DNA of 64,000 nucleotides. It comes from an uncultured Candidatus Actinomarina sp. Lineage in GTDB: Bacteria; Actinomycetota; Acidimicrobiia; Actinomarinales; Actinomarinaceae. A program made the translations under genes and the position numbers. Below the pieces are notes generated by a model, which ran no database searches, was not told the origin of the DNA, and saw only the letters and a program-made list of their open reading frames with translations. The number at the start of each line of letters is the position of its first letter. The stretch's first letter is position 1. Of this stretch, positions 1 through 14,147 are shown one piece after another. Location: assembly GCA_902626065.1 (NCBI GenBank), contig CACODT010000003.1, positions 18,895-82,894 on the forward strand, written 5' to 3'.

Positions 1-457
1 TTCTGTTACTCAACAAATTATTTCTTTTCTTGTCATTACTTACAAGTAAAAATACATAAAATCCGTAAAGAAAAAAGATAGCTGTATTGAATGAACCAGA
101 TACTGCTCCAACAGTACTTGCATCGATCACATTTTCAAAAACACTGTTGTAGGTAACCAAAGGACCAAGTGCAAAAAGCATCTGGACGGTTACACATACA
201 AATAAAATATTGTGTGCATGAGAAAGATCAAAAGTTTTCTTTACTTCAAATACCACATAGATTCCCATCAAAATACCAGTTGTCAAAAATCCAATAAGGA
301 AATTAATAATTGACTGTATTGGTCCATAGGTTGGATCATACCCAACTGAATCAGGGCCAATTACAACTGCTAAGATAACGAAATTAGCTAAAACAAGAAT
401 TGCAACTACTCTTGTGATAGTTTTTATATTTTTTGTTTCTGCTTGAAATGTTTCCAT
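1..457 (-). CDS. Polytopic membrane protein, unknown function. The 3' end of the gene (C-terminus) runs off the window edge.
   Basis: Minus-strand frame is open from ATG at 455-457 to position 1; I checked it codon by codon and found no in-frame stop. Translation METFQAETKNIKTITRVVAILVLANFVILAVVIGPDSVGYDP... is dominated by hydrophobic helices. Absent from the ORF track because it runs off the window. Confidence 0.55.
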   Translation of the reverse strand, partial: METFQAETKNIKTITRVVAILVLANFVILAVVIGPDSVGYDPTYGPIQSIINFLIGFLTTGILMGIYVVFEVKKTFDLSHAHNILFVCVTVQMLFALGPLVTYNSVFENVIDASTVGAVSGSFNTAIFFLYGFYVFLLVSNDKKRNNLLSNR

Positions 458-459
458 AT

Positions 460-1110
460 TTATTTACTCCATTCTGATAATTTGCCAGCGGGAAAACTCA
501 CCATATTTCTCCATAAATGGCATTCTCCCGTTACTACCGTCGGTGGAGTCTTAATATAATTTTCTGCATCTTTCATAAACTCCTGATAAGTTTCTTGTGA
601 AGCATCCATGGCATCTTGCGAATCCCAATTGCTTAAACCTATAAGTTCAGTTCCTGTATCTGCAGCAAATGCACCAAGTAATCCATCTGTTCCTTCATAA
701 CCTGTGTAAACAGTATTTTGCAGCCAATCCATACCTTCATCATATTTCTCATCAATATATTCTGATCCGTAACTTATTCTTACAACAAAGGATTGTCCTT
801 CTCTATCACCTTTCATGATGTTTACATACTGCTGACCAACTTTCATGGTCCCATACTTGATTGTTGGAGGGCCTGTAACAAAATCTTTTAATCCACTCAA
901 GGCTTGTTGAATTTGTTCGCTTGCCGCATTCATTGCGTCTTCATCGGCCCATATTGACCAAGACATAATTTGTCCAACGCTATTTTCACATATTGCAATC
1001 TGAAATAACCCAGGTGTGCCAACAAATTCTTCTATCTTGCTTTCACCATAAGCCATTGCTTCTTCCGTTTTTCCGTCTTGCACATCAATTAGTGTTAGTC
1101 TAAATATCAA
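460..1110 (-). CDS. Protein with an internal duplication, ABM/dimeric alpha-beta-barrel-like fold; function unknown
   Basis: 216-aa ORF with TTG start. The two halves share a pattern: 'MSWSIWADEDAMNAASEQIQQ' versus 'GLSNWDSQDAMDASQETYQEF'. This resembles the W-x-s-x-e-a motif of ABM/stress-responsive barrel domains. The fold assignment is from memory, not a search. Confidence 0.55.
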   Translation of the reverse strand: MIFRLTLIDVQDGKTEEAMAYGESKIEEFVGTPGLFQIAICENSVGQIMSWSIWADEDAMNAASEQIQQALSGLKDFVTGPPTIKYGTMKVGQQYVNIMKGDREGQSFVVRISYGSEYIDEKYDEGMDWLQNTVYTGYEGTDGLLGAFAADTGTELIGLSNWDSQDAMDASQETYQEFMKDAENYIKTPPTVVTGECHLWRNMVSFPAGKLSEWSK

Positions 1111-1174
1111 AATATTTTCCTTTCTTTTTTTTCTAAAGTGTGTTGAAACTTCAATTAAGTATGTTTACAAAGCC

Positions 1175-1732
1175 CTATTTTTTATTCCAAGCCATGAAGC
1201 TTCCAATACCAACTCCAGTAACAACTGAGAGATAGCCCACTAGACCTAATATTTGAATAGTGTCTGGTAGCTCTACACCAAATAAATTCTGTGTTGCTCC
1301 AAATATAAAAAATACAGTAGCTGCAAGTGCACAAAGATATCTAAATATATTTCCTAACACTCCCTTAGAATTTAAAAATATAATTGCTAAAGTAATTGAA
1401 AAATAAAGTCCACCAGCAGATGTACTAATTGGTTGATCACCCGACAAACTAAGCTGTCCCGGATTGCTCAAATCTATAACTGTAAAAATAGCTGGAACAA
1501 TTGAACCTAATACTAAGCTTAAATCAGCAAATTGTGAAATATTGTTTTCTGATAACAACTTTCTCATGTACCAAAATGTTGCCGCAAAGCATAACGACTG
1601 TATGTAAGCTACTAGTGGTATTCTTTCCTCGGCACCCGTAAGAAAAGTTGCAATATCCGCCAATGAGACTATAAATAATCCTAGACCAGCGTACTTTCCA
1701 ATTGATATATCATTTTTTGTTAAATTTTCCAT
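1175..1732 (-). CDS. Multi-pass membrane protein, unknown function (paralog of 1748..2326)
   Basis: 185-aa hydrophobic ORF. C-terminus 'LPDTIQILGLVGYLSVVTGVGIGSFMAWNKK' aligns with 'IPESIQPIFGIGWIAMVIGLGYGSYVAWGDK' of the neighbouring ORF. Confidence 0.6.
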   Translation of the reverse strand: MENLTKNDISIGKYAGLGLFIVSLADIATFLTGAEERIPLVAYIQSLCFAATFWYMRKLLSENNISQFADLSLVLGSIVPAIFTVIDLSNPGQLSLSGDQPISTSAGGLYFSITLAIIFLNSKGVLGNIFRYLCALAATVFFIFGATQNLFGVELPDTIQILGLVGYLSVVTGVGIGSFMAWNKK

Positions 1733-1747
1733 TTAATTTCCTTTCTT

Positions 1748-2326
1748 TTATTCTGTGCCAGATGACATTTTGTCACCCCAAGCAACATAACTTCCGTAAC
1801 CTAATCCAATGACCATTGCTATCCATCCAATTCCAAATATTGGTTGTATAGATTCTGGTATTGCATAGTCAAAAAACATATTTGCTCCAGAGAATATGAC
1901 TATTGAAATAAATCCAAAGATACTCAAATATTCATAAACTGGTCTAAATACACCTGTACCTCTCATTGTTAAACTATAAATTAATGAATTAAAGCCCCAA
2001 AAGAAATACATCGGGACAAACCCACCATCATCGATAGTGTATTCAGGTGATGATATCTCGATAAAAGTACCTAAAATGATCACTGTAGCTAAGATCGAAG
2101 ACGCCATTTTCCAATACTCTGGCACTTGATCTTCAACCAAATAATATCCAGCAATAATTATTGACAATAATGAAAATCCCCAAAGAAAATTCAAAAGGTT
2201 ACCCAATCCCACAGGTACATCTAATTCTCCAAAGCCAACTACCAGCAAAAATACATTGCAAACAATAAATCCTAATGCGTTTTGTCTTGCGAGTTGGCCG
2301 ATTGGCTGTGTAAAAAACGTTTTCAT
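1748..2326 (-). CDS. Multi-pass membrane protein, unknown function (paralog of 1175..1732)
   Basis: 192-aa hydrophobic ORF. Strong SD-like 'GAGGAAGGAAG' lies just upstream on the minus strand. C-terminal similarity to the adjacent ORF. Confidence 0.6.
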   Translation of the reverse strand: MKTFFTQPIGQLARQNALGFIVCNVFLLVVGFGELDVPVGLGNLLNFLWGFSLLSIIIAGYYLVEDQVPEYWKMASSILATVIILGTFIEISSPEYTIDDGGFVPMYFFWGFNSLIYSLTMRGTGVFRPVYEYLSIFGFISIVIFSGANMFFDYAIPESIQPIFGIGWIAMVIGLGYGSYVAWGDKMSSGTE

Positions 2327-3835: not shown

Positions 3836-6800
3836 ATGAATATAGACATGAAACATAAAAAAAGTTTTGTTATTTTAACTATTCTTTTTCTAATTTTTTC
3901 TGCCTGCGGTGGTTCAGGTGATACATCAAGTGAAACGATAGATACTACCGAAGAAACTACAACAACCACAACTGTGGATGTAGAAGTATCTCCTGGAGAA
4001 GTCTATAACGAAGCAGATTTAGTTGTTCCTCCCATTCTCTTAAAACCTCTTATAGGAGCAACAGGTATTCTCACTGATGCATCAAATGACTGGGAAATAA
4101 TTAGTGAGATTGTTCCACTAGATATGGGTGTGAAGATTAGAACGGCTGACAATGGTACTGCTCAGATGACCTTTGAAGATGGTTCATCACTTTTAATGGG
4201 TGGCAACTCCGTTATCAACATAAGAAGTTTTGATTATGATGAGGAAGCAAAAGCAAGAGTTCTAACAGTTGATGTAATCTCTGGAAGTATTGCATATGAT
4301 ATAAGAAGTGAAGGTCTCCAGGCTTCTCTAGCTAAAATTGTCACCCCTACTGCAGAGCTTTCGGTGCATGGAACGGAAGGTGTTTTTGAATATGATGTTA
4401 CTACATTATCAGCAAAGAGTACTGTCTTAGAAGGTGGTGAAGAAACTGATGATGCTGTTTTTAGCGAACTCCTTCCAGATGAGAATGGTCAACCAGTACT
4501 TGTAGCAATTTCACAAACTGCAGGGACAGAACTTGGTAGTGCAACAACTGGAGGTTCTGGTTGGACAGAAGAAGAACCAGGAACAGTAGCTCTTATTGTT
4601 GATGATTTTGTATCAAATATGGAGGGTGATTGTAGTTACACTTGTAAGGCAGAAACTCAAGAAGGATTGGTCGATGGGTCTGAAACTCTTACTCCAGACA
4701 CTGCCCCAAATGCTGTTTTTACTGAAAGTGATACTGAAAGATTAGATCTTACATCAACCCTTCTTACAGCTGCTGGTGCTCCTGAGGAAATAACTCAGTC
4801 TGTTGAAAATTTAGCCGAGATTGTTGCTGAGGTTGCTGTTCCAGAAGCAGAAGTAAAAGAGTTTATAGATGAGGCCTGGAATGCTGCCCCAGGAGATGAT
4901 GGTCAATGGCAAGAGCTTCCTCCTCTTACACTTGCAGATAATTTTGGAGATGCTGCAAAAGTTCATGAGAATGAGGAATTAAAAGATCTTGGGTTTGATC
5001 ATGAGGAGCATGGTGGGTTTAGAGCTCAACATGGAATGATGCAGTTTATATCCGCTGATACAAATGCTGTGAATGAGCTTGCAGAAACAGGGAATGTTGC
5101 TTCAGCAATGGCACTTGCTGCTGCAAACATGTTTGTTAATGCAGAAACTGAAGGTTTTGCAGAAGGAACTTATTGTTTCGACAATCCTGATGATGAAGAT
5201 TGCTTGGGTGGAGGTCCAGACCCAGATTTTCTTGCTCAGGCTTTTGCTGGAAACCACTTCGTAGAAGATATGGTAAATGATATGGGATTTGCCTACACAT
5301 TCACGGAAAATGAGTTAAAACCAGATTATTGTGAAGAGTCGCCTTGGTTACCTGAGTGTGCAAGCGGCCCAGGATATGTTGGAGATGAATTTAAAGAGGG
5401 TGGATCTTTTTGTGAGGCAAATCCAGAATCATGTCAAAATAATGAAAATATTGGAAATGTATTTTTCAACAATGATGATAATTCAACTTTTTGCGAAGAG
5501 AATGCAGATGATCCAATGTGTACTGGTGGAAACTCTGTTGCTGTATATACATTTTTTCATGTTTATGATGATGAAGTACTTGGAGACGAATGGAAGCCAG
5601 TTGACTGTATATCTTACCCAGAAGATCCAATGTGTACAGGTGAAGGTGACTTTTTTCACGAACATGTTGGCGAGGCTACAGCTATTGCGTTAGACAGAAA
5701 TGATATGTTTGATATATATGGTGGTCCAGTTGTTGTTTCAGGACCGCCAGATGAATATTGTAATGAAAATCCAGAATCTTACGAATGTACCGAAGATTTT
5801 AAAGCCGCTGATGTCTATTCTGATGGTGTTTATGTTGCCCCCAATTACTGTGAACAAGCACCTGAGGCACCAGAATGTACAGATGAATTTGGAAACAATG
5901 TAGGATTTTCTGGATTATTAACAGCTGGCATGCTTGCAGAATATGCTGCACCTGATCCAAATGCTTTTGCAGGAGAAAAACCAAGTTTTTGCACTGAAGA
6001 CCCTAATCACCCTGAATGTTTTAGAGACTATTATGAGGAATCATCTTTGGACACAGGTGAGTTTCTTGGAAATATGTTTAGTGATGAATCATATGTAGAT
6101 TTATCTAAACAAGGCGTATTCTATAGTGCTATTGAGAGTGCTGATGATTTAGCTTCGCAAAGATACGGTAGTCATGATGATTATCGAATTTCTGAAGGAA
6201 TTGATTGTACAGATCCTTCAAATTTAATCTTACCTCAATGTTCAAATCCAGAATTATATGAAAGTTCGTCACCTAGTCTTTTTACCGGTGGAGAAGATGG
6301 GCTACAGGAATTCCAAACATTTAATCCTGAAGACCTTGGTGATCTTTGCGAGGAAAATCCTCAAGATCCTCTTTGTTATACCCAACCAATAGAGAGTGGA
6401 ACTGTTCCTGGTGATATTTTTAGTCCGCCCGGAGATGGTGCCTTACAGCCTGGTACTTCTCCAGCTAACATTGGATTTTGGGGTAACGAAGATAATGCTC
6501 AAGAATTTCAGACCCAGTCAGAAACATATACAGATTTTGCCGGAAATTATTGCGAGGAGAATCCAAACGACCCAACTTGCTCACAAGTTGCTTTTCAACC
6601 GCCAGAAGGTGGAATAATTCAAAACCAAGAGTGTGATGATAATCCTTACGCTCCAGGATGTCCTCAAAGTGGTGGTCAAGAAGGACAAGGCCCACCCCCT
6701 GAAGGAGAAGGTATAGATTGTGGAGATCCGTCTAATTCAGCTTTACCTCAATGTACGAATCCGGAATTATATGACTCTGGTGAAGAGTATGTACCTCCTG

Positions 6801-7033
6801 CTGGTGGAGATCAAAATCAAGAGGATTGTACTGACAACCCTTATGCCCCTGGATGTCAACCTCCTGCTGGTGAAGAGTATGTACCTCCTGCTGGTGGAGA
6901 GACTCCTCCTGGTTATGAACCTACACCTGCTGAGGAAACACCTCCGGCAGGTCCAGCAAGTGAACCGCCTGCTGAAGAAACACCTCCGGCAGGTCCAGCA
7001 AGTGAACCGCCTGCAGCTCCACCTGCTCCTTAA
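3836..7033 (+). CDS. Large acidic secreted lipoprotein: FecR-like N-terminal domain, 14 short Cys-pair motifs, Pro-rich C-terminal repeats
   Basis: 1065 aa. Signal peptide plus lipobox 'LIFSACGG'. 'GVKIRTADNGTAQMTFEDGSSLLMGGNSVINI...VISGSIAY' resembles a FecR domain. There are 14 C-x6-10-C motifs, for example 'YCEENPNDPTC', 'LCEENPQDPLC', 'FCTEDPNHPEC', 'ECDDNPYAPGC'. The C-terminus is 'EETPPAGPASEPPA' x2. Confidence 0.8.
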   Translation: MNIDMKHKKSFVILTILFLIFSACGGSGDTSSETIDTTEETTTTTTVDVEVSPGEVYNEADLVVPPILLKPLIGATGILTDASNDWEIISEIVPLDMGVKIRTADNGTAQMTFEDGSSLLMGGNSVINIRSFDYDEEAKARVLTVDVISGSIAYDIRSEGLQASLAKIVTPTAELSVHGTEGVFEYDVTTLSAKSTVLEGGEETDDAVFSELLPDENGQPVLVAISQTAGTELGSATTGGSGWTEEEPGTVALIVDDFVSNMEGDCSYTCKAETQEGLVDGSETLTPDTAPNAVFTESDTERLDLTSTLLTAAGAPEEITQSVENLAEIVAEVAVPEAEVKEFIDEAWNAAPGDDGQWQELPPLTLADNFGDAAKVHENEELKDLGFDHEEHGGFRAQHGMMQFISADTNAVNELAETGNVASAMALAAANMFVNAETEGFAEGTYCFDNPDDEDCLGGGPDPDFLAQAFAGNHFVEDMVNDMGFAYTFTENELKPDYCEESPWLPECASGPGYVGDEFKEGGSFCEANPESCQNNENIGNVFFNNDDNSTFCEENADDPMCTGGNSVAVYTFFHVYDDEVLGDEWKPVDCISYPEDPMCTGEGDFFHEHVGEATAIALDRNDMFDIYGGPVVVSGPPDEYCNENPESYECTEDFKAADVYSDGVYVAPNYCEQAPEAPECTDEFGNNVGFSGLLTAGMLAEYAAPDPNAFAGEKPSFCTEDPNHPECFRDYYEESSLDTGEFLGNMFSDESYVDLSKQGVFYSAIESADDLASQRYGSHDDYRISEGIDCTDPSNLILPQCSNPELYESSSPSLFTGGEDGLQEFQTFNPEDLGDLCEENPQDPLCYTQPIESGTVPGDIFSPPGDGALQPGTSPANIGFWGNEDNAQEFQTQSETYTDFAGNYCEENPNDPTCSQVAFQPPEGGIIQNQECDDNPYAPGCPQSGGQEGQGPPPEGEGIDCGDPSNSALPQCTNPELYDSGEEYVPPAGGDQNQEDCTDNPYAPGCQPPAGEEYVPPAGGETPPGYEPTPAEETPPAGPASEPPAEETPPAGPASEPPAAPPAP
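6779..6900 (+). repeat. Dispersed 32-bp direct repeat inside the large lipoprotein gene
   Basis: 'ggtgaagagtatgtacctcctgctggtggaga' occurs identically at 6779-6810 and 6869-6900, encoding GEEYVPPAGG. A longer diverged duplication encoding 'EGIDC.DPSN..LPQC.NPELY' lies at about 6193-6264 and 6706-6777. Confidence 0.9.
6927..7014 (+). repeat. 42-bp in-frame tandem repeat, 2 copies, encoding (A)EETPPAGPASEPP
   Basis: 'gaaacacctccggcaggtccagcaagtgaaccgcctgc' is identical at 6935-6972 and 6977-7014. The flanking 'ctgctgagg/ctgctgaag' extends the repeat with one mismatch. Confidence 0.9.
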
Positions 7034-9685
7034 CTATTCGTAGGAAATAGCCTCAAGAATATTTTGTCTAGATGCTCTTATTGCTGGAATAATTGCTGCA
7101 ATAACTCCTGAAACTATTGCTATTGCAATCCATAAAATTGTTTGCTGGACAGAGACAACAAATTCGGTAAAACCTTGATCTTCTAAAGCTTGAATCAAAC
7201 TCCATGCAAAAAATATACCAAGCCCTGTTCCAAGTACTGCACCAAATACCGAAATGATTGAAGATTCTATAAATACCATGTTTCTGATTTGTTTTCTTAA
7301 TGTCCCTATAGCCCTCATTAAACCAATCTCTCTTGTTCTTTCGTAGACTGATAATGAAAGAGTGTTCGTAATTCCAAATAAAGCCACAAAAATAGAAATA
7401 GATAAGAATCCATAAATTACATTCAGCAATAACTGAATCTGGTTATTTGCTTCATCGATTAAAGCATCTTGATCACGTAATGTTACCCCTGGATAGTGAT
7501 CTACAATATCGTCAAGTTTGTTTTTAGTGGCTTCATCCTTGGTTACGACGTTAAAGTAGAGCTCTGTATCTAAGGACTCGTTTGAAAAAAATTCGTGATT
7601 ATCCAAAAGGAGAAAAAATTCAGCTGGAGGTTGGGTGGTCCAATCAAAAATATACTTAACAATAAAATCTTTTTTTCCAACTTCAGGAATCGTCAAAGTT
7701 ACTCTGTCATTTAGTGAAATATTATCATTATCCGCTTTAAATTTTAAAACTCCAATGGCATCTTGTTGATAAAAATCTTCTCTTGAGCCAGCGATATCTA
7801 CAGTCTTGATGAGATCAAAAACTTCTCTATCAACAGCTCCCAATATCAATGGTCTATTGTTATACCCAACAACAGTAGCTCGTGTTCTTGAAAGTTCTGT
7901 AACCTCTTCAAGTTCAAGCAATTCTTGAGATAAACCTGTTGGAATACCAGGGGATGCAAAAATTTGAGCTGCACTGACCTGATAATCTGCGAGAACAACT
8001 TCTTTAACAACTTTTTCTGCTTGTGCCTTGAATGATGTGGTTAAAACGTTTGCAAGAGATATTAAAGTAAGTCCAATCATTAATGCTGAGGCTGTAGATG
8101 CAGTCCTTCGGGGTGTTCGTTTAGAATTTTCTGTTGCCAATTTACCAAGAATGCCAAAAATAGTTCTGTAAAGCCTATCAAAAATACTGACAAAAGGTTT
8201 TGTGATAGAAGGTGTAATTACTGAGATTCCAATAAAAATTATGCTTGCACCTAAGCCTACTTGTTGAAGTACTGATAGCGAAGGGGCTCTAAAAAAGGAA
8301 TACAAGACACCGAAAAGAACTGCCAAGCCTGATAATGAGACTGATGATCCTACAATCAATCTTATAAACAACGACTTTCTTTTTGGAGTTGATTGACTGT
8401 CTCTAATTGCTTCAAGAGGGCTTACTTGAGAAGCTTTTCTAGCTGGTAATAATGAAGAGAATATAGTTACAACAACACCAATAATAATTCCTGTAATTGC
8501 AGCATCAGGAGTTAAAACTAACGGACCCTCAGGCAGGCCAAAATCAAAATACTTTAATCCTTCTTTTACAACAACTGATAAGCCAATACCTAAGGCAACC
8601 CCAAGACCTGATCCAATTACAGCCATATATAATGATTCTGAAACAACTAACCTATAAATTTGTCTCTTTGAAGTTCCTAAAGCTCTTAGTAATGAAAGTT
8701 CTTTAGTTCTTTGTAGTAAAAGAATTCTAAAAGTATTTTGTATAATAAAAGCTCCAACAAAGATGGCTATTCCTGCAAATACATTCAATATTGTATTAAA
8801 AAAATCAAGACCCTGTTTTATAGAATCAGCTTGTTCAGCTGCTGCTTGCTGAGCATTAATAACTTCGATACCTTGAGAATCGATATTTGAAATTGCATTT
8901 CTTACTTCATTTATATCAGCATTTTCATCCACAACAACATTTATAAAATCTACCTCTCCTATCGAATCTAAAAGAATTTGTGCGGTTCTAAAATCAAAAA
9001 GAGCAAATGATGCTCCACCTGGTGAACCTGTATTTGCAAATTCTGCTATTCCAACAATCGTAAAAGTAGCCGGTATGGCTCCAGCAAGCACCGTAACTCT
9101 ATCTCCGACTCTAAAAGCATTTCCTTCAGCTGTAGTTGAATCCATAACAACCTCTTTATTATTTGTAGGGGGTTGTCCCTCAATAATTTCCCACTGTGAT
9201 GCATAAGGAGATGTATCCCATGCTGCTCCAAAAGTTGGAGCAAAACCATTTTGAATTAAAATAGTTTCTCTTTCACATTCTGGATTAAAAGAATGACAAT
9301 CTCGTCTAGGACCAAATTTTATGAATTGAGCAAACCCAATAACATCACCCCATGCATCTTTTACTCCATCAATACTTTTAATCTCATTTATTCTTGAATC
9401 CGAGATCTTTCTGAACTCAAATGATATTGGGCCTTGTCCACCGTCATCTCCAAACCCTTGAGCAAAATCTTCTTGTATTGGCTGAACTACTAGATCTATT
9501 CCTTCGAATACGCCAGAAAACAAATTATCAAATGCGTTCTTATTGCTTTCAGAGAATATATTTGCAGCAATAATTACTGAGACCCCAAGAATAATAGATG
9601 ATGTCGTTAAAAATATTCTTACTGGATAGGTTTTCAGATTTTTCCACGCAATTAACAACAGTGGTCTTTTTGTAAATCCAAACAT
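7034..9685 (-). CDS. ABC transporter permease with two FtsX/MacB-type domains
   Basis: 883 aa. N-terminal TM, large extracytoplasmic domain and 3-TM FtsX block ('LRALGTSKRQI'). This is followed by a second extracytoplasmic domain and FtsX block ('MRAIGTLRKQI'), ending in the typical 'PAIRASRQNILEAISYE'. Confidence 0.85.
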   Translation of the reverse strand: MFGFTKRPLLLIAWKNLKTYPVRIFLTTSSIILGVSVIIAANIFSESNKNAFDNLFSGVFEGIDLVVQPIQEDFAQGFGDDGGQGPISFEFRKISDSRINEIKSIDGVKDAWGDVIGFAQFIKFGPRRDCHSFNPECERETILIQNGFAPTFGAAWDTSPYASQWEIIEGQPPTNNKEVVMDSTTAEGNAFRVGDRVTVLAGAIPATFTIVGIAEFANTGSPGGASFALFDFRTAQILLDSIGEVDFINVVVDENADINEVRNAISNIDSQGIEVINAQQAAAEQADSIKQGLDFFNTILNVFAGIAIFVGAFIIQNTFRILLLQRTKELSLLRALGTSKRQIYRLVVSESLYMAVIGSGLGVALGIGLSVVVKEGLKYFDFGLPEGPLVLTPDAAITGIIIGVVVTIFSSLLPARKASQVSPLEAIRDSQSTPKRKSLFIRLIVGSSVSLSGLAVLFGVLYSFFRAPSLSVLQQVGLGASIIFIGISVITPSITKPFVSIFDRLYRTIFGILGKLATENSKRTPRRTASTASALMIGLTLISLANVLTTSFKAQAEKVVKEVVLADYQVSAAQIFASPGIPTGLSQELLELEEVTELSRTRATVVGYNNRPLILGAVDREVFDLIKTVDIAGSREDFYQQDAIGVLKFKADNDNISLNDRVTLTIPEVGKKDFIVKYIFDWTTQPPAEFFLLLDNHEFFSNESLDTELYFNVVTKDEATKNKLDDIVDHYPGVTLRDQDALIDEANNQIQLLLNVIYGFLSISIFVALFGITNTLSLSVYERTREIGLMRAIGTLRKQIRNMVFIESSIISVFGAVLGTGLGIFFAWSLIQALEDQGFTEFVVSVQQTILWIAIAIVSGVIAAIIPAIRASRQNILEAISYE

Positions 9686-10413
9686 TAAATATCGCTTAAA
9701 GATGTAACTTTTGAAATTATTTCTTCTTGAGACGGGTCTTCAAGGTCACTTGCCACTTCTCCATCTTTTAACATTATGACTCTCTCAGCAAAAGATGCAG
9801 CGAAAGGATCATGTGTCACCATTACAATCGTCTGGTTTAATTCGTTTACAACAGATTTCATAAAAGTTAATAATTCCTTACTTGACTTTGAATCTAAATT
9901 TCCAGATGGCTCATCAGCAAAAATTACTTCGGGCATTGTTGCCATTGCACGAGCAGCTGCAACTCTTTGTTGTTGACCCCCAGAAAGTTCATTTGGTCGA
10001 TGATTTAGTCTATCTCCAATATCTACAGCATTAACAATCTTATCAATCCATTCTTCATCTGGTTTTTTACCAGCTATAGAAGAGGGAAGTGTAATATTCT
10101 CTTCTGCTGTTAAGGTTGGAATCAAATTAAAGGCTTGAAAGACAAAGCCAAAAGAATCTCTTCTAATTTTTGTTAATTCTTTATCATTTAAATTACCTAA
10201 ATCGATACCTTTGACAAAAATTGATCCAGAAGTAACTTTATCTAAGCCAGCAAGACAATGTAAAAGTGTAGATTTGCCTGATCCAGATTGACCCATAATT
10301 GCTGTAAATTTATTTTCAAAAAAATCCAGATTTACATTATTTAAAGCTGTAACAGACGTACCGTCTTCACCATAAACCTTTGTTAAATTTTTAGCTTCAA
10401 TTATTTTTTTCAT
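9685..10413 (-). CDS. ABC transporter ATP-binding protein (MacB/LolD-type)
   Basis: Walker A 'GQSGSGKST', signature 'LSGGQQQRVAAARA', Walker B 'IFADEP', H-loop 'VTHD'. The stop overlaps the permease start. Confidence 0.9.
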   Translation of the reverse strand: MKKIIEAKNLTKVYGEDGTSVTALNNVNLDFFENKFTAIMGQSGSGKSTLLHCLAGLDKVTSGSIFVKGIDLGNLNDKELTKIRRDSFGFVFQAFNLIPTLTAEENITLPSSIAGKKPDEEWIDKIVNAVDIGDRLNHRPNELSGGQQQRVAAARAMATMPEVIFADEPSGNLDSKSSKELLTFMKSVVNELNQTIVMVTHDPFAASFAERVIMLKDGEVASDLEDPSQEEIISKVTSLSDI

Positions 10414-10464
10414 TTAAACAAGAATAGAAGATATTTTATTTTTACTTAAACTAAATATTTTGAA

Positions 10465-10935
10465 TTAATTCAAAATTAAAGATGATATCTTATTCCATTC
10501 TGATACTAAAGGACCAGTTTTATAAAGTTCTAACGTATCAAAAGTTACCGTAATTGGTAATAGATTATGTAGAGTTTCTTGAAAATAAGATTTTGGTAAT
10601 TCATTCCCATAATATAAAGATAAGTGAGGAACCCATAAACTAGGCCAACCCTCAATGTTATTTATCAAAATTTGAAAATTTGAATTATCCGATGCTGTTA
10701 AAAACAGACGTTGAAAATAAGTTTTTCCTTCTTGAATACCATCAAAGGTAATATCGAATTTATGTTTTGTTATTTTATCAAAAATATCAAATGCAAAATT
10801 CTCACTTTGCAGATTTGTTACTAAAGTAACGTGAGGCTCGAAACAATCTTTATCTTCCTCTTCTGAAAAAATTTTCATTGTTTCTTCTATTTTAAATAGT
10901 TGATTTGTTGTAGATTTAACCCAGATTGAATACAT
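10465..10935 (-). CDS. 2H phosphoesterase superfamily protein (cyclic phosphodiesterase-like)
   Basis: 156 aa with two H-x-[TS]-x motifs, 'EPHVTLV' and 'VPHLSLYYG', the hallmark of LigT/CPDase 2H enzymes. Confidence 0.6.
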   Translation of the reverse strand: MYSIWVKSTTNQLFKIEETMKIFSEEEDKDCFEPHVTLVTNLQSENFAFDIFDKITKHKFDITFDGIQEGKTYFQRLFLTASDNSNFQILINNIEGWPSLWVPHLSLYYGNELPKSYFQETLHNLLPITVTFDTLELYKTGPLVSEWNKISSLILN

Positions 10936-10942
10936 TATAAAT

Positions 10943-11764
10943 TTATGCTCTAACTTTTGTTAATTTACTAATAAACAAACAAATAATAAAAATTGATGTT
11001 GCAACTAATGACATCGTAGGACCAGAAGGTAGATTGAAAAAATACGATAAGTATAGACCTGTAACTGAAGATAAAATACCAAATAGAACACTTATAAAAA
11101 TTGAAGAAATAAAGGTGTTTGCTACTTGTTTTGATGCTGCTGCAGGTATCAACAACATACTCAAAACTAAAATTATTCCAACTGTCTGAAGTGAAGCGAC
11201 AATTGTAACCGACAATAATATAAGAAATAAATAATTCAAAAAGTTAGTATTTAAACCTTTAACTTCAGCTCCTATAGGATCAAATGAATAGAACAATAAT
11301 TGTTTAAAAAAGACTGCTACAAGACTTATTACAGTAATGCACATAATAGTAACTATTAAAACATCAAAACTACTTACGGCCAGTATTTGACCAAATAATA
11401 AGTCTTCAAGGTTAATTGTTACATTAAATACTGATATCAAAACAAATCCTAGAGCAAAAAAAGATGAAAAGATTATTCCTATTGCAGTGTCTTCTCCAAT
11501 GTTTGAATTTTTTATAATATAACCTAAAAACAATGCAATTATTATTGATGCTGGAACTCCTAATTCAGAAATACTAAAACCCAAAAAAACACCTATCGCA
11601 ATAATTGGAAGGGTTGCGTGTGCCATAGCATCTGCCATGAATCCCATATTTCTATTGATTGTAAAAGGTCCTAATAAAGAGAGTGTGGCTCCGGATAAAA
11701 TAGCTGTAACAATTGATCGAATCATAAAATCATATTGAAAAGGCTCTATTAATATTTCAATCAT
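10943..11764 (-). CDS. znuB: Metal (zinc-type) ABC transporter permease, ABC-3 family
   Basis: Hydrophobic ABC-3-like protein. I prefer the ATG giving 'MIEILIEPFQYDF...' at 11764. The track ORF extends to 11833, but that extension lies inside the upstream ATPase gene. Confidence 0.8.
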   Translation of the reverse strand: MIEILIEPFQYDFMIRSIVTAILSGATLSLLGPFTINRNMGFMADAMAHATLPIIAIGVFLGFSISELGVPASIIIALFLGYIIKNSNIGEDTAIGIIFSSFFALGFVLISVFNVTINLEDLLFGQILAVSSFDVLIVTIMCITVISLVAVFFKQLLFYSFDPIGAEVKGLNTNFLNYLFLILLSVTIVASLQTVGIILVLSMLLIPAAASKQVANTFISSIFISVLFGILSSVTGLYLSYFFNLPSGPTMSLVATSIFIICLFISKLTKVRA

Positions 11765-12548
11765 TATTTTTTCTATGACTTTCTGGAGTATGATATTTAA
11801 ACATTTCAGTATGAGAACCATACATTTCCTCAATAACTTCTTTTGTTAAAACTTCTGATGGGTCTCCATAAGCGCAACAATGTCTATTGAGACAAAGAAC
11901 CTCATCAAATTTTTCGTCAAGATTATTAATATCGTGTGTGGCAATCAAAATAGTTTTTCCATCAAAATTTATATCGCTAATTATATTCATAATGTCTTCC
12001 TGTGCTCCTACATCAACTGCACTGAATGCTTCATCTAGTAGCAAAATATCTGCATCTTGAGCCAATCCTCTTGCAATTAATACTCTTTGAAACTGACCAC
12101 CTGATAAATTATTTATATTTTCATTAATTTTCTCAATGAGTCCTACATTTTCTAAAGCTTTTGTAATTTTTTGATTAACTTTTTTTCTTGAAAATAAATT
12201 CAGTGTGTTTTTTTCGATTAAACCCATTTCGACGACCTGCTTCACAGAAAGGGGGAAATTTCTATTAATTAAATCTTTTTGGGGGACGTAACTAATTGAT
12301 CCCTTGGCATCTTCGGGGTTCATTCCTTTAATTTTAAGAGAACCATCAACGACTGGAACCAGACCAGCAATAGCATTAAATAAAGTGGATTTACCTCCAC
12401 CATTTGGTCCCACAACAGCTACTTTTTTTCCTCTTTCAATTGAAAAAGTTACATCATCTAAAGCTTGTGCCTTCCCTAGCTGAACACAGCAACCGTCAGA
12501 AACAATGATTGCTGTATCATTTGAATTATCTTTTTTTACATTGTTCAT
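11757..12548 (-). CDS. znuC: Metal ABC transporter ATP-binding protein
   Basis: Walker A 'GPNGGGKST', signature 'LSGGQFQRVLIARG', Walker B 'LLLDEA', 'ATHD'. Sits between the binding-protein and permease genes. Confidence 0.85.
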   Translation of the reverse strand: MNNVKKDNSNDTAIIVSDGCCVQLGKAQALDDVTFSIERGKKVAVVGPNGGGKSTLFNAIAGLVPVVDGSLKIKGMNPEDAKGSISYVPQKDLINRNFPLSVKQVVEMGLIEKNTLNLFSRKKVNQKITKALENVGLIEKINENINNLSGGQFQRVLIARGLAQDADILLLDEAFSAVDVGAQEDIMNIISDINFDGKTILIATHDINNLDEKFDEVLCLNRHCCAYGDPSEVLTKEVIEEMYGSHTEMFKYHTPESHRKNND

Positions 12549-12592
12549 AGTGATACCTTTCTTTAAGTTATTGAAAGTTATCTACAATCAAC

Positions 12593-13597
12593 TTAATCAG
12601 TATTTCTAAGATTCTCCACAATTAATTCAACAGCGCTTATCAAGAATTCTGGATATGTTTGACCTTCCTTCAAAGTCTCAACCCATAATCCTTCAACTGC
12701 TTTAATACCAGTTTCTGCAACAATTGTTTCTGCATAAACTGATGGAGCTTCTGCTTCAATAAAAATTACTTTTACATTATTGTCCTGGATTACATCAATA
12801 ACATCTACCAGCTGTGCTGGTGATATTTCATTTGCAGAATCTACATCTGGAATGATGGTTGATAAAACTTGTAGTCCAAATTTAGCTTCAAGGTAACCTA
12901 GTGATTCATGAGTTGTAATTAATTTTCTATTCTGTGAGGGGACTGTTGATAATAGATCAGAAACCTGACCTGTTAAGCCGCTCAATTCGCTTTTATAGGT
13001 TGCTAATGATGATTGGTAATCAGATTCGTTATCCGGATCAAATTCACTTAATTTTGATTCAATATATTCAACAGCATATACGACTCTTCCTGGGTCAAAC
13101 CAGAAGTGAGGATCATATGCACCATGATTGTGACCTTCATGTTCGTCATCACCTTCTTCATCATCATGACCTTCTTCATCATCATGATCATCGTGGTCAT
13201 CATGCCCACCTTCTTCAAATTCTATTGGAAAAACATTTTCACCAATTTCAGCAAGAATAGTTTGACTACATGCTGAGTTTTCCAATAATTTTATAACAGC
13301 TGCCGGTTCATATTTTAAACCTGTATAGAAAACGAGATCGGCATCAGCAATTGTTCCCGCGTCTTGAGGGGCAGGTTCATAAGTATGTGGATCTGCTTCG
13401 GCTGGCATTAAGACTGTAAGATTTACATTATCTCCAGCTACTTGATCGACAAATTCACCCATCATAGGAGTAGTGGCTACAACATTGAGGTTTCTATCTC
13501 CCAGTTCTGGACATCCAGCTTCTGAACCTCCAGTGCATGCAATTAACACAATGGAAAGTGCTATTACACCTAATTTAAAAAATTTATTGTTATTCAA
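12593..13597 (-). CDS. znuA: Metal ABC substrate-binding lipoprotein with a His/Asp-rich loop (zinc-type, ZnuA-like)
   Basis: Lipobox 'VLIACTGG'. Cluster-9 binding-protein features 'DPHTYEP' and 'DPHFWFDP'. Long loop 'GGHDDHDDHDDEEGHDDEEGDDEHEGHNHG', characteristic of zinc-specific ZnuA. Confidence 0.85.
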   Translation of the reverse strand: MNNNKFFKLGVIALSIVLIACTGGSEAGCPELGDRNLNVVATTPMMGEFVDQVAGDNVNLTVLMPAEADPHTYEPAPQDAGTIADADLVFYTGLKYEPAAVIKLLENSACSQTILAEIGENVFPIEFEEGGHDDHDDHDDEEGHDDEEGDDEHEGHNHGAYDPHFWFDPGRVVYAVEYIESKLSEFDPDNESDYQSSLATYKSELSGLTGQVSDLLSTVPSQNRKLITTHESLGYLEAKFGLQVLSTIIPDVDSANEISPAQLVDVIDVIQDNNVKVIFIEAEAPSVYAETIVAETGIKAVEGLWVETLKEGQTYPEFLISAVELIVENLRNTD

Positions 13598-13706: not shown

Positions 13707-14147
13707 ATGCGTATGAAAGATTCAAAACAAATTTTATCAGACCATAAGGTTTCAGTTACTAATCCAAGAATTTTGGTTATCGAGGCGTTGCTAGAGAATA
13801 ATAATCCCCTAACTGTGGATGAACTTCAGATAAAGCTAAAAAATAAAGTTGCAAAATCAACTCTCTACAGGGTTTTAAATGATTTAAAAAAAATAAATAT
13901 ATTAAATGAATTTACAAATCCAGAAAATGCAATTGTTGTTGAGCTTTTACTTGAGGATGACTCCCATCACCATCATTTGTTCTGTAGTGATTGCGGAGAA
14001 ATTATAGATATTCAAATGGGTGATGAATTCGAAAGAACTTTATCCAAAGAAATTAAAAGATTGGAAAAGAAATTTAATTTTTCGATTGAGGATCACAGGC
14101 TTGAATTATTTGGAAAGTGTACGGATCTTTGCGAAAATTGCAGCTAA
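13707..14147 (+). CDS. zur: Fur-family metalloregulator, probable zinc uptake regulator
   Basis: 146 aa. Winged-helix N-terminus, then 'HHHHLFCSDCGEIIDI' and the C-terminal 'CTDLCENC' Cys pairs typical of Fur/Zur. Divergent from the znu operon. Confidence 0.8.
   Translation: MRMKDSKQILSDHKVSVTNPRILVIEALLENNNPLTVDELQIKLKNKVAKSTLYRVLNDLKKINILNEFTNPENAIVVELLLEDDSHHHHLFCSDCGEIIDIQMGDEFERTLSKEIKRLEKKFNFSIEDHRLELFGKCTDLCENCS

What the first reader, a model, noticed from the sequence alone, without database searches (positions are those of the whole stretch)
3836..7033. 1065-aa hyper-acidic lipoprotein with 14 'C-E-E-N-P-x-D-P-x-C' mini-loops and Pro-rich repeats
After a lipobox and a FecR-like beta domain, the protein carries 14 Cys pairs. 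Eleven have exactly 8 intervening residues, two have 10 and one has 6. Nearly all are preceded by an aromatic or aliphatic residue and are rich in N-P / D-P:
- YCFDNPDDEDC, YCEESPWLPEC, FCEANPESC, FCEENADDPMC, DCISYPEDPMC
- YCNENPESYEC, YCEQAPEAPEC, FCTEDPNHPEC, LCEENPQDPLC, YCEENPNDPTC
- ECDDNPYAPGC, DCTDNPYAPGC
- Two copies of 'GIDC.DPSN..LPQC.NPELY'

The C-terminus shows recent DNA-level duplications: a 32-bp identical repeat and a 42-bp tandem repeat. I do not recognise the Cys-loop repeat as a named domain.

The spacing and acidity suggest small disulfide-closed, possibly cation-binding loops displayed on a long surface protein. The gene is convergent with a double-FtsX ABC permease and abuts it with zero gap, but nothing in the sequence links the two functionally.
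Basis: seen in the sequence. Interest (0 to 1): 0.6.

Follow-up and report, generated by a model that had tools for sequence, protein, structure and literature searches.

The report
Acidic surface lipoprotein with CP12-like loops
This is an intact gene for a large, extremely acidic, lipid-anchored surface protein found only in the tiny marine bacterium Candidatus Actinomarina; it is studded with 14 short two-cysteine loops whose only known look-alike is the disulfide loop of the photosynthesis regulator CP12, and what it does is still unknown.

Summary
ORF 3836-7033(+) encodes 1065 aa with a lipobox, a Pfam FecR domain and 14 Cys pairs spaced 8,8,6,8,8,8,8,8,10,8,8,8,10,8.

In 26 full-length relatives the first 11 pairs and their spacing are unchanged. 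Total pairs range from 9 to 23, because the C-terminal loops vary.

The family is an orphan. A profile of the post-FecR region found only fragments of itself among 1.84 billion proteins. All genomic loci are Ca. Actinomarina, where it occurs in 19 of 47 species genomes; some near-closed genomes lack it.

dN/dS is 0.06-0.43 (0.26 or less in 30 of 32 region comparisons), so the gene is functional. Its halves have different histories, which indicates intragenic recombination.

A 22-column loop profile hits only CP12 and the GapB tail in the PDB (E 5e-5), and a column-shuffled control hits nothing. This is likeness of a motif, not membership.

Local disulfides are likely. All 13 Cys-containing predicted lipoproteins of this genome have even mature Cys counts, and DsbB is present.

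The FtsX neighbour looks incidental. AlphaFold failed (pLDDT 40).

Best reading: a disulfide-stapled, probably cation-binding envelope protein with a variable outer half.

The scan met this family before on two other genomes (e1-4729880, e1-4779370); I retested the CP12 lead here.

The parts
3836..7033 (+). Whole gene, 1065 codons plus stop. The likely true start is the ATG at 3848 (M5).
   Evidence: The family consensus starts MKxKK. dN/dS is 0.06-0.43 over all regions, 0.26 or less in 30 of 32 comparisons.
3836..3907 (+). Lipoprotein signal peptide with lipobox L-I-F-S-A-C24.
   Evidence: C24 and G25 are invariant in 28 homologs. Lgt and LspA are present in the genome.
3908..4009 (+). Thr-rich, acidic tether (residues 25-58).
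   Evidence: Read from the sequence. It is poorly conserved.
4010..4570 (+). FecR-like beta domain (residues 59-245; Pfam hit 100-200). It is the most conserved part, 80-97% identical across the genus.
   Evidence: Pfam PF04773 at 34.3 bits.
4631..4645 (+). Invariant C266-S-Y-T-C270 (CxxxC).
4646..5170 (+). Conserved Cys-free region (residues 271-445), predicted helical at low confidence. It contains the invariant FRAQHGMMQFISADTNAVNELA.
5174..6580 (+). Conserved core (residues 447-915): 11 Cys loops with invariant positions and spacing (8,8,6,8,8,8,8,8,10,8,8), separated by unique aromatic-rich spacers.
   Evidence: Similarity between units is confined to 10-30 columns around each loop.
5750..5878 (+). 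Loops 6 and 7 (C642-C651, C672-C681). This is the only stretch AlphaFold models with confidence, and the two places in this gene where the Pfam CP12 model scores.
   Evidence: pLDDT is 58-87 for residues about 630-690.
6632..6856 (+). Variable distal loops 12-14 (residues 933-1007). The number of loops in this part differs between relatives, giving 9 to 23 pairs in all.
   Evidence: The 68-nt repeat 6194-6261 / 6707-6774 at 81% identity is.
6857..7030 (+). Pro-rich acidic tail (36% Pro), with an exact 34-nt repeat (6777-6810 = 6867-6900) reaching into it and a 42-bp tandem repeat at 6926-7014.
   Evidence: The tail's repeat unit differs in every lineage.

Best explanation
The gene encodes a lipid-anchored protein of the cell envelope of Ca. 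Actinomarina.

- A conserved FecR-like beta domain sits next to the membrane on a Thr-rich tether. It probably docks onto a conserved envelope partner.
- Beyond it lies a long, strongly negative ectodomain. Unique aromatic-rich segments are pinned by at least 11 local disulfides, each closing a 10-residue ring of the type [YF]-C-x-[ED]-N-P-[DE]-x-P-E-C. This is the ring seen in oxidised CP12.
- In oxic seawater the rings should be permanently closed. They would make the chain rigid and protease-resistant, and they present clusters of carboxylates that probably hold divalent cations.
- The outermost part carries extra loops and a Pro-rich tail. It is the exposed, fast-changing end and is exchanged between strains by recombination.

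Shown here: the anatomy, the conservation, purifying selection, the mosaic history, the CP12-like motif and the presence of the export and oxidation machinery.

Inferred: the disulfide pairing, the cation binding, the topology across the wall and the biological role.
For: - Lipobox plus Lgt and LspA.
- The Cys pairs and their spacing are invariant in 26 of 28 aligned homologs, while the surrounding sequence is 57-92% identical.
- Of 16 predicted lipoproteins in the genome, mature Cys counts are 0, 2, 4, 6 or 30. That is 13 even to 0 odd, against 342 even to 418 odd in the other ORFs.
- DsbB (41.9 bits) lies next to a membrane-anchored thioredoxin-fold protein.
- The loop profile hits only CP12 and the GapB tail among 177,635 PDB sequences (E 5e-5). 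A second profile hits six CP12 entries only. A column-permuted control gives nothing.
- In CP12 this Cys pair is a disulfide, and one mapped metal-binding stretch (Asp70-Glu76, top-down mass spectrometry) lies near the C-terminus (PMC3906501, PMC9406205).
- dN/dS is 0.06-0.43 in every region, 0.26 or less in 30 of 32 comparisons. The core is 13% aromatic, so it is not a disordered linker.
- The N-terminal domain is 80-97% identical, against 57-92% for the loop region.
- Mosaic dS: against L037 it is 0.20-0.27 in the N-terminal half and 0.85-1.4 in the C-terminal half. Against L048 the pattern is reversed.
Against: - There is no structure. Both AlphaFold runs have mean pLDDT 40 and Foldseek found nothing.
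- Disulfide pairing, metal binding, expression and localisation are untested.
- The CP12 likeness covers only 11-15 residues and is below threshold in the reverse direction: the Pfam CP12 model scores E 0.5-6 on this genome. It may be convergence and may carry no functional meaning.
- The wall architecture of Actinomarina is unknown (PMC7771536).
- Some near-closed genomes of the genus lack the gene, so it is not essential.
Confidence: 0.45

Rival explanations
1. It is a dedicated trace-metal binding or buffering protein, for example for Cu2+ or Zn2+ at the cell surface. It would use the acidic loops together with conserved His and Met residues such as Q-H-G-M-M-Q, FFHVYD, FFHEHVG and NHPEC.
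For: - Five His are invariant (H178, H399, H575, H725, H780), three more are at least 90% conserved (H389, H474, H608), and M401/M402 are invariant.
- CP12 binds Cu2+ (Kd 26 uM) and Ni2+ in vitro, and Ca2+ in an overlay assay (PMC9406205, PMC3906501).
- In the commonest context the znuABC-zur cluster lies 3-7 kb away.
Against: - No known metal-binding family matches.
- The znu proximity is ordinary conserved synteny and is lost in the G2 clade.
- No metal-responsive operator was found or sought upstream.
- Micromolar affinities would be useless for trace metals in seawater.
Confidence: 0.2
2. It is a partner, substrate or regulator of the adjacent MacB-type double-FtsX ABC transporter.
For: - The convergent, zero-gap adjacency recurs in clades G1, G3 and G4, where the neighbours are only 68-79% identical in the more distant clades.
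- MacB/Lol/FtsEX-type pumps act on extracytoplasmic proteins (established knowledge).
Against: - The genes are convergent, so they are not co-transcribed.
- In clade G2 the gene lies between an oxidoreductase and a DrrA-type ABC, while ATPase-FtsX-M20 stay together.
- Near-closed genomes G085 and G057 keep the pump and lack the gene.
- Synteny is generally well preserved in this order (PMC7771536).
Confidence: 0.1
3. It is a redox-switchable, conditionally disordered sensor or buffer, in the manner of CP12. The loops would open and close with extracellular oxidants or reductants such as light-driven ROS in surface water.
For: - The loop motif resembles the redox-switching loop of CP12.
- The organism lives in the photic zone (PMC7771536).
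- FecR domains are sensor modules in other systems.
Against: - There is no transmembrane or cytoplasmic output domain and no adjacent sigma factor or kinase.
- Oxic seawater offers no reductant to open the loops.
- Fourteen or more loops are more than a switch needs.
Confidence: 0.07
4. It is drifting low-complexity sequence or a decaying gene without a specific function.
For: - Low-complexity Pro-rich tail.
- Patchy distribution within the genus.
- Amino-acid change is faster than in the flanking genes, whose omega is 0.03-0.07.
Against: - The reading frame is intact in all 21 loci, apart from contig ends.
- dN/dS is 0.06-0.43 everywhere, 0.26 or less in 30 of 32 region comparisons.
- At least 21 Cys are invariant and 4 more are at least 90% conserved, alongside many invariant aromatic residues.
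Confidence: 0.02

Closest known systems
C-terminal disulfide loop of CP12 (Pfam PF02672; PDB 3B1J, 3ZDF, 6GFO, 6KEZ, 3QV1, 2LJ9) and its copy in the C-terminal extension of chloroplast GAPDH-B (2PKQ, 7Q54)
   Same: - An aromatic residue, then C-x-[DE]-N-P-[DE]-x-x-E-C, with 8 residues between the Cys.
- It is the only thing in the PDB that the loop profile finds.
- 25 of 59 single loops touch the Pfam CP12 model at positions 55-67.
- Both are acidic, and in CP12 the pair is a disulfide.
   Different: - CP12 is an 80-aa cytoplasmic or stromal, conditionally disordered regulator of GAPDH and PRK with one such loop, an N-terminal pair and an AWD_VEE core.
- Here the loop occurs 11 times (CX8C type) in a 1065-aa exported lipoprotein of a heterotroph.
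- AWD_VEE is absent.
- The likeness stops at the second Cys.
- No match reaches the Pfam cut-off.
FecR-domain lipoproteins such as Leptospira LipL45 and Lsa33
   Same: Lipobox followed by a FecR (PF04773) beta domain. There are weak NCBIfam matches through that domain (E 8e-5 and 8e-4).
   Different: The scores (22 and 18.5 bits) are far below the family cut-offs (420 and 350). Those proteins are 310-390 aa and have no Cys-loop region or Pro-rich tail.
FecR-type anti-sigma factors
   Same: The extracytoplasmic FecR domain.
   Different: There is no cytoplasmic anti-sigma domain and no transmembrane helix, and no ECF sigma or TonB-dependent receptor nearby. The organism is a Gram-positive-type actinobacterium.
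Acidic calcium-binding repeats of surface proteins (thrombospondin type 3, Excalibur, dockerin)
   Same: Short Asp/Asn-rich, partly Cys-bounded loops repeated along an extracellular protein. This comparison comes from memory of those families.
   Different: No Pfam match even at E up to 10. The motif and its spacing are different.

Membership tests
CP12 (PF02672) | C-terminal Cys pair enclosing an acidic N-P-containing loop. | tested here: met
   The loop profiles hit only CP12 and the GapB tail in the PDB (E 5e-5 and 9.5e-4). The permuted control gives 0 hits.
CP12 (PF02672) | Core AWD_VEE motif and an N-terminal Cys pair within a protein of about 80 aa (PMC3906501). | tested here: not met
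   A regular-expression search finds no AWD_VEE. The protein has 1065 aa and a signal peptide.
CP12 (PF02672) | Score above the Pfam gathering threshold (22.7 bits). | tested here: not met
   There is no hit on the whole protein or its thirds. The best single loop reaches E 0.01. A genome-wide scan gives 10.3 and 7.9 bits on loops 6 and 7.
CP12 (PF02672) | Binds and inhibits GAPDH and PRK of the Calvin cycle. | not testable with these tools
   The protein is predicted to be extracytoplasmic, which makes this role implausible.
FecR domain (PF04773) | Score above the Pfam gathering threshold. | tested here: met
   34.3 bits against a cut-off of 24, residues 100-200.
FecR-type anti-sigma factor | N-terminal cytoplasmic anti-sigma domain, one transmembrane helix, and an adjacent ECF sigma factor. 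| tested here: not met
   The N-terminus is a lipoprotein signal peptide. The neighbours are an M20 peptidase and an FtsX-type ABC transporter.
LipL45 / Lsa33 (NCBIfam NF033165, NF047849) | Score above the curated cut-off. | tested here: not met
   18.5 against 350 bits and 22 against 420 bits.
Bacterial lipoprotein | Signal peptide ending in a lipobox Cys, with the processing enzymes present in the genome. | tested here: met
   LIFSAC24 is invariant. Lgt scores 88 bits and LspA 86.9 bits.
Bacterial lipoprotein | Acylation and membrane attachment. | not testable with these tools
   This needs biochemistry.

The most novel reading that the evidence does not exclude
The CP12-type redox and metal loop, known only as a single regulatory element inside photosynthetic cells, has been recruited and multiplied 11-20 fold on the outside of a non-photosynthetic marine bacterium. 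This could have happened by capture from co-occurring cyanobacteria or cyanophages, or by convergence. There it would work as an extracellular, disulfide-gated cation- or copper-binding array that conditions the cell surface of one of the smallest free-living cells.
Probability: 0.12. Interest if true: 0.75.

Novelty: new variant of a known kind. Interest (0 to 1): 0.5.

Why it matters
Ca. Actinomarina is among the smallest and most streamlined free-living cells in the surface ocean, is uncultured, and has an undescribed envelope.

A 3.2-kb gene is a large investment: 0.3% of a 1 Mb genome, and its sixth longest ORF. It is kept under purifying selection in four of the five genus-level clades that the 2020 Actinomarinales genome study defined within the order (G1-G4). 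It is therefore a prime candidate for a major envelope component.

It also supplies a compact, conserved disulfide mini-module of about 17-21 residues with no described extracellular counterpart. Its only known analogue is CP12.

If the loops bind cations or metals, this would bear on how such cells handle their surface charge and trace metals. If the outer half is a target of phages or grazers, it would be a marker of strain-level diversity.

Tried and rejected
- AlphaFold2 on the full protein with 28 homologs, and on residues 380-803 with 21. Mean pLDDT was 40.2 and 39.9; only residues about 630-690 were confident. The fold is unresolved.
- Foldseek of the core model against the PDB. Best E was 4.3, which is meaningless.
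- Pfam on the Cys-rich thirds at E up to 10 gave noise only. The PDB gave nothing by sequence, either for the region profile or for the N-terminal domain.
- The CX10C loop profile has no analogue in the PDB or Pfam.
- VKOR and the DsbA-like Thioredoxin_4 family were not found in this genome, which is 89% complete. DsbB was found instead.
- A tandem repeat of a larger domain is rejected. Profile-profile comparison of the 11 units aligns only 10-30 columns around each loop.
- A functional operon with FtsX is rejected as unsupported.
- Expression evidence from public sequencing runs could not be sought.
- The literature search found no mention of this protein in the Actinomarinales genome paper, and no paper on CP12-like elements in heterotrophic bacteria.
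Full report
**1. The observation**

The ORF at 3836-7033(+) is open and encodes 1065 aa. It has 31 cysteines:
- C24 closes a lipobox (LIFSAC).
- C266/C270 form a CxxxC.
- The other 28 fall into 14 neighbouring pairs with 8,8,6,8,8,8,8,8,10,8,8,8,10,8 residues between them.

Shuffling residues 440-1010 gives on average 4.5 such neighbour pairs, and never 14 in 20,000 trials.

The protein has 211 Asp+Glu and 28 Lys+Arg. The mature chain carries about -189 charges at pH 8. It is the second most net-acidic ORF and the sixth longest in a 1.02 Mb, 33% GC genome. Exported proteins of this genome are acidic in general, so the acidity is an extreme of a trend, not a singularity.

Other points checked:
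- Pfam finds only FecR (residues 100-200, 34.3 bits).
- The double-FtsX gene starts at 7034 on the other strand.
- The family consensus begins MKxKK, so the real start is probably the ATG at 3848.

**2. Conservation**

Thirty-nine clusters of homologs exist, all from marine metagenomes or single-cell genomes.

In an alignment of 28 relatives, C24, C266, C270 and the Cys of loops 1, 2, 4-8, 10 and 11 are invariant. Those of loops 3 and 9 are at least 90% conserved.

In 26 of the 28, the first 11 pairs keep exactly the spacing 8,8,6,8,8,8,8,8,10,8,8. P0035 has one extra 6-spaced pair ahead of that series, and P0037 has only 8-spaced pairs. Total pairs range from 9 to 23 because the distal part gains and loses loops.

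The consensus motifs are:
- CX8C type: [YF]-C-x-[ED]-N-P-[DE]-[DA]-P-E-C.
- CX10C type: [IL]-D-C-S-D-P-x-N-x-x-x-P-E-C.

Profile-profile comparison of the 11 conserved units aligns only 10-30 columns around each loop. The repeated element is thus a mini-module of about 17-21 residues, set between unique, conserved, aromatic-rich spacers (13% aromatic in 446-803). It is not a tandem array of a larger domain.

**3. Selection and history**

dN/dS against eight relatives is 0.06-0.43 in every region, loops included, and 0.26 or less in 30 of the 32 region comparisons. The highest value is in the C-terminal part. The flanking M20, FtsX and ATPase genes show 0.03-0.07. The gene is functional but changes its amino acids several times faster than its neighbours.

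The membrane-proximal FecR part is 80-97% identical across the genus. The loop region is 57-92% identical.

The two halves have different histories. Against L037, dS is 0.20-0.27 for residues 25-445 and 0.85-1.4 beyond. Against L048 the pattern is reversed. This is the signature of intragenic recombination.

The Pro-rich tail uses a different repeat unit in each lineage. Eleven of 21 contigs end inside the 3' repeat region, which is an assembly problem caused by the repeats.

**4. Distribution and context**

A profile of the post-FecR region, searched against 1.84 billion representative proteins, returned 35 hits, and they look like pieces of this same family: the best is a full-length homolog already in the alignment, and the six others I read are fragments of it.

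All 23 loci found in species-representative genomes are Ca. Actinomarina or the OCS155 cluster. In a sample of 201 genomes of the class, 19 of 47 genomes of the genus carry the gene, and none of 153 from other genera. Three near-closed genomes of the genus have only signal-peptide-level matches.

The supplementary table of PMC7771536 places carriers in genomospecies G1.1, G1.3, G2.2, G2.8, G3.1 and G4.4. The gene is therefore old in the group and has been lost in some lines.

Contexts:
- In G1, G3 and G4 the gene lies between the M20 peptidase and the ATPase-FtsX pair, in the opposite orientation.
- In G2 it lies after a GFO/ADH fusion oxidoreductase and before a DrrA-type ABC.
- Two further contexts exist.
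- Where the gene is missing or relocated, ATPase-FtsX-M20 are directly adjacent.

The FtsX adjacency is best read as preserved synteny, not as a functional unit. It is not excluded.

**5. Are the pairs disulfides?**

This was not shown directly. The indirect evidence is good:
- The genome has Lgt and LspA.
- It has a DsbB homolog (41.9 bits) next to a thioredoxin-fold protein. VKOR and Thioredoxin_4 were not found.
- Among 16 ORFs with a lipoprotein-like N-terminus, mature Cys counts are 0, 2, 4, 6 or 30. That is 13 even and none odd, against 342 even and 418 odd in the remaining ORFs.

**6. What the loop resembles**

An earlier report of this scan on another genome (e1-4729880) called the loops CP12-like. 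I tested this independently.

- A 22-column profile of 59 non-redundant CX8C loops, searched against all 177,635 distinct PDB sequences, returned six hits. All are CP12 (3B1J E 5e-5, 3ZDF, 6GFO) or the CP12-derived tail of GAPDH-B.
- A second profile, from loops 6 and 8 with longer flanks, returned six CP12 entries and nothing else. The alignment ends at the second Cys.
- The same profile with permuted columns returned nothing at E up to 10.
- The CX10C profile returned nothing relevant.
- Twenty-five of 59 single loops touch the Pfam CP12 model at positions 55-67. No other family recurs.

In the reverse direction the likeness is weak. The Pfam CP12 model gives only 10.3 and 7.9 bits on loops 6 and 7 in a whole-genome scan, and AWD_VEE is absent.

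So this is a specific likeness of a motif. The protein is not a CP12 family member, and descent from CP12 cannot be told apart from convergence.

CP12's pair is a redox-active disulfide. CP12 binds Cu2+ and Ni2+ in vitro and Ca2+ in an overlay assay, and one mapped metal-binding stretch (Asp70-Glu76) lies near its C-terminus (PMC3906501, PMC9406205).

**7. Structure**

AlphaFold2 failed on the whole protein and on residues 380-803, with mean pLDDT 40.2 and 39.9. Only loops 6-7 (about 630-690) reached 58-87. Foldseek found nothing. The alignments are shallow and closely related, so low confidence says nothing about disorder.

**8. Verdict**

This is a real, conserved, genus-restricted orphan lipoprotein.

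Best reading (0.45): an envelope protein anchored by lipid. It has a conserved FecR-like base and a long, acidic ectodomain stapled by CP12-type disulfide rings that probably hold divalent cations. Its outer end is variable and recombining.

Rivals:
- A dedicated metal binder (0.2).
- A partner of the FtsX pump (0.1).
- A redox switch (0.07).
- Drifting sequence (0.02).

The family was met twice before in this scan on other genomes. This window adds the even-cysteine statistic, the controls for the CP12 match, the context survey across clades and the limit of the repeat unit.

Noticed in passing
G000 contig C2:94739-97984 (locus L052): The DsbB homolog (172 aa) and a thioredoxin-fold Redoxin protein (208 aa) lie immediately downstream of a bacteriorhodopsin-like gene (220 aa, Pfam Bac_rhodopsin 107.6 bits), all on the same strand.
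   Followed up: partly
whole genome G000: All 13 Cys-containing ORFs with a lipoprotein-type N-terminus have an even number of mature cysteines (2, 4, 6 or 30). Other ORFs show no such bias (342 even, 418 odd). This points to a thoroughly disulfide-bonded exoproteome.
   Followed up: partly
G137:C4:29803-32414: In one genome of the genus, the ortholog of the double-FtsX permease is split by an in-frame TAA. This is either a pseudogene or a sequencing error.
   Followed up: no
window 7034-13597 and 13707-14147: Downstream on the minus strand lie the ABC ATPase, a 2H/CPDase-like protein and ZnuB/ZnuC/ZnuA, then a divergent zur-like gene. In several relatives a 451-aa gene, and sometimes a 755-aa gene, is inserted between the ATPase and the CPDase.
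   Followed up: no
window 1-2326 and loci L013-L018: The upstream run of about 190-aa membrane-protein paralogs and ABM-like proteins varies in copy number between relatives, with 2-4 copies of the 190-aa type. This looks like a small variable region next to the M20 gene.
   Followed up: no
G000:C3:87938-87985 (-), outside the window: The best, still insignificant, match of the Pfam CP12 model in this genome (11.5 bits, E 0.5) lies in a 344-aa ORF just beyond the window.
   Followed up: no
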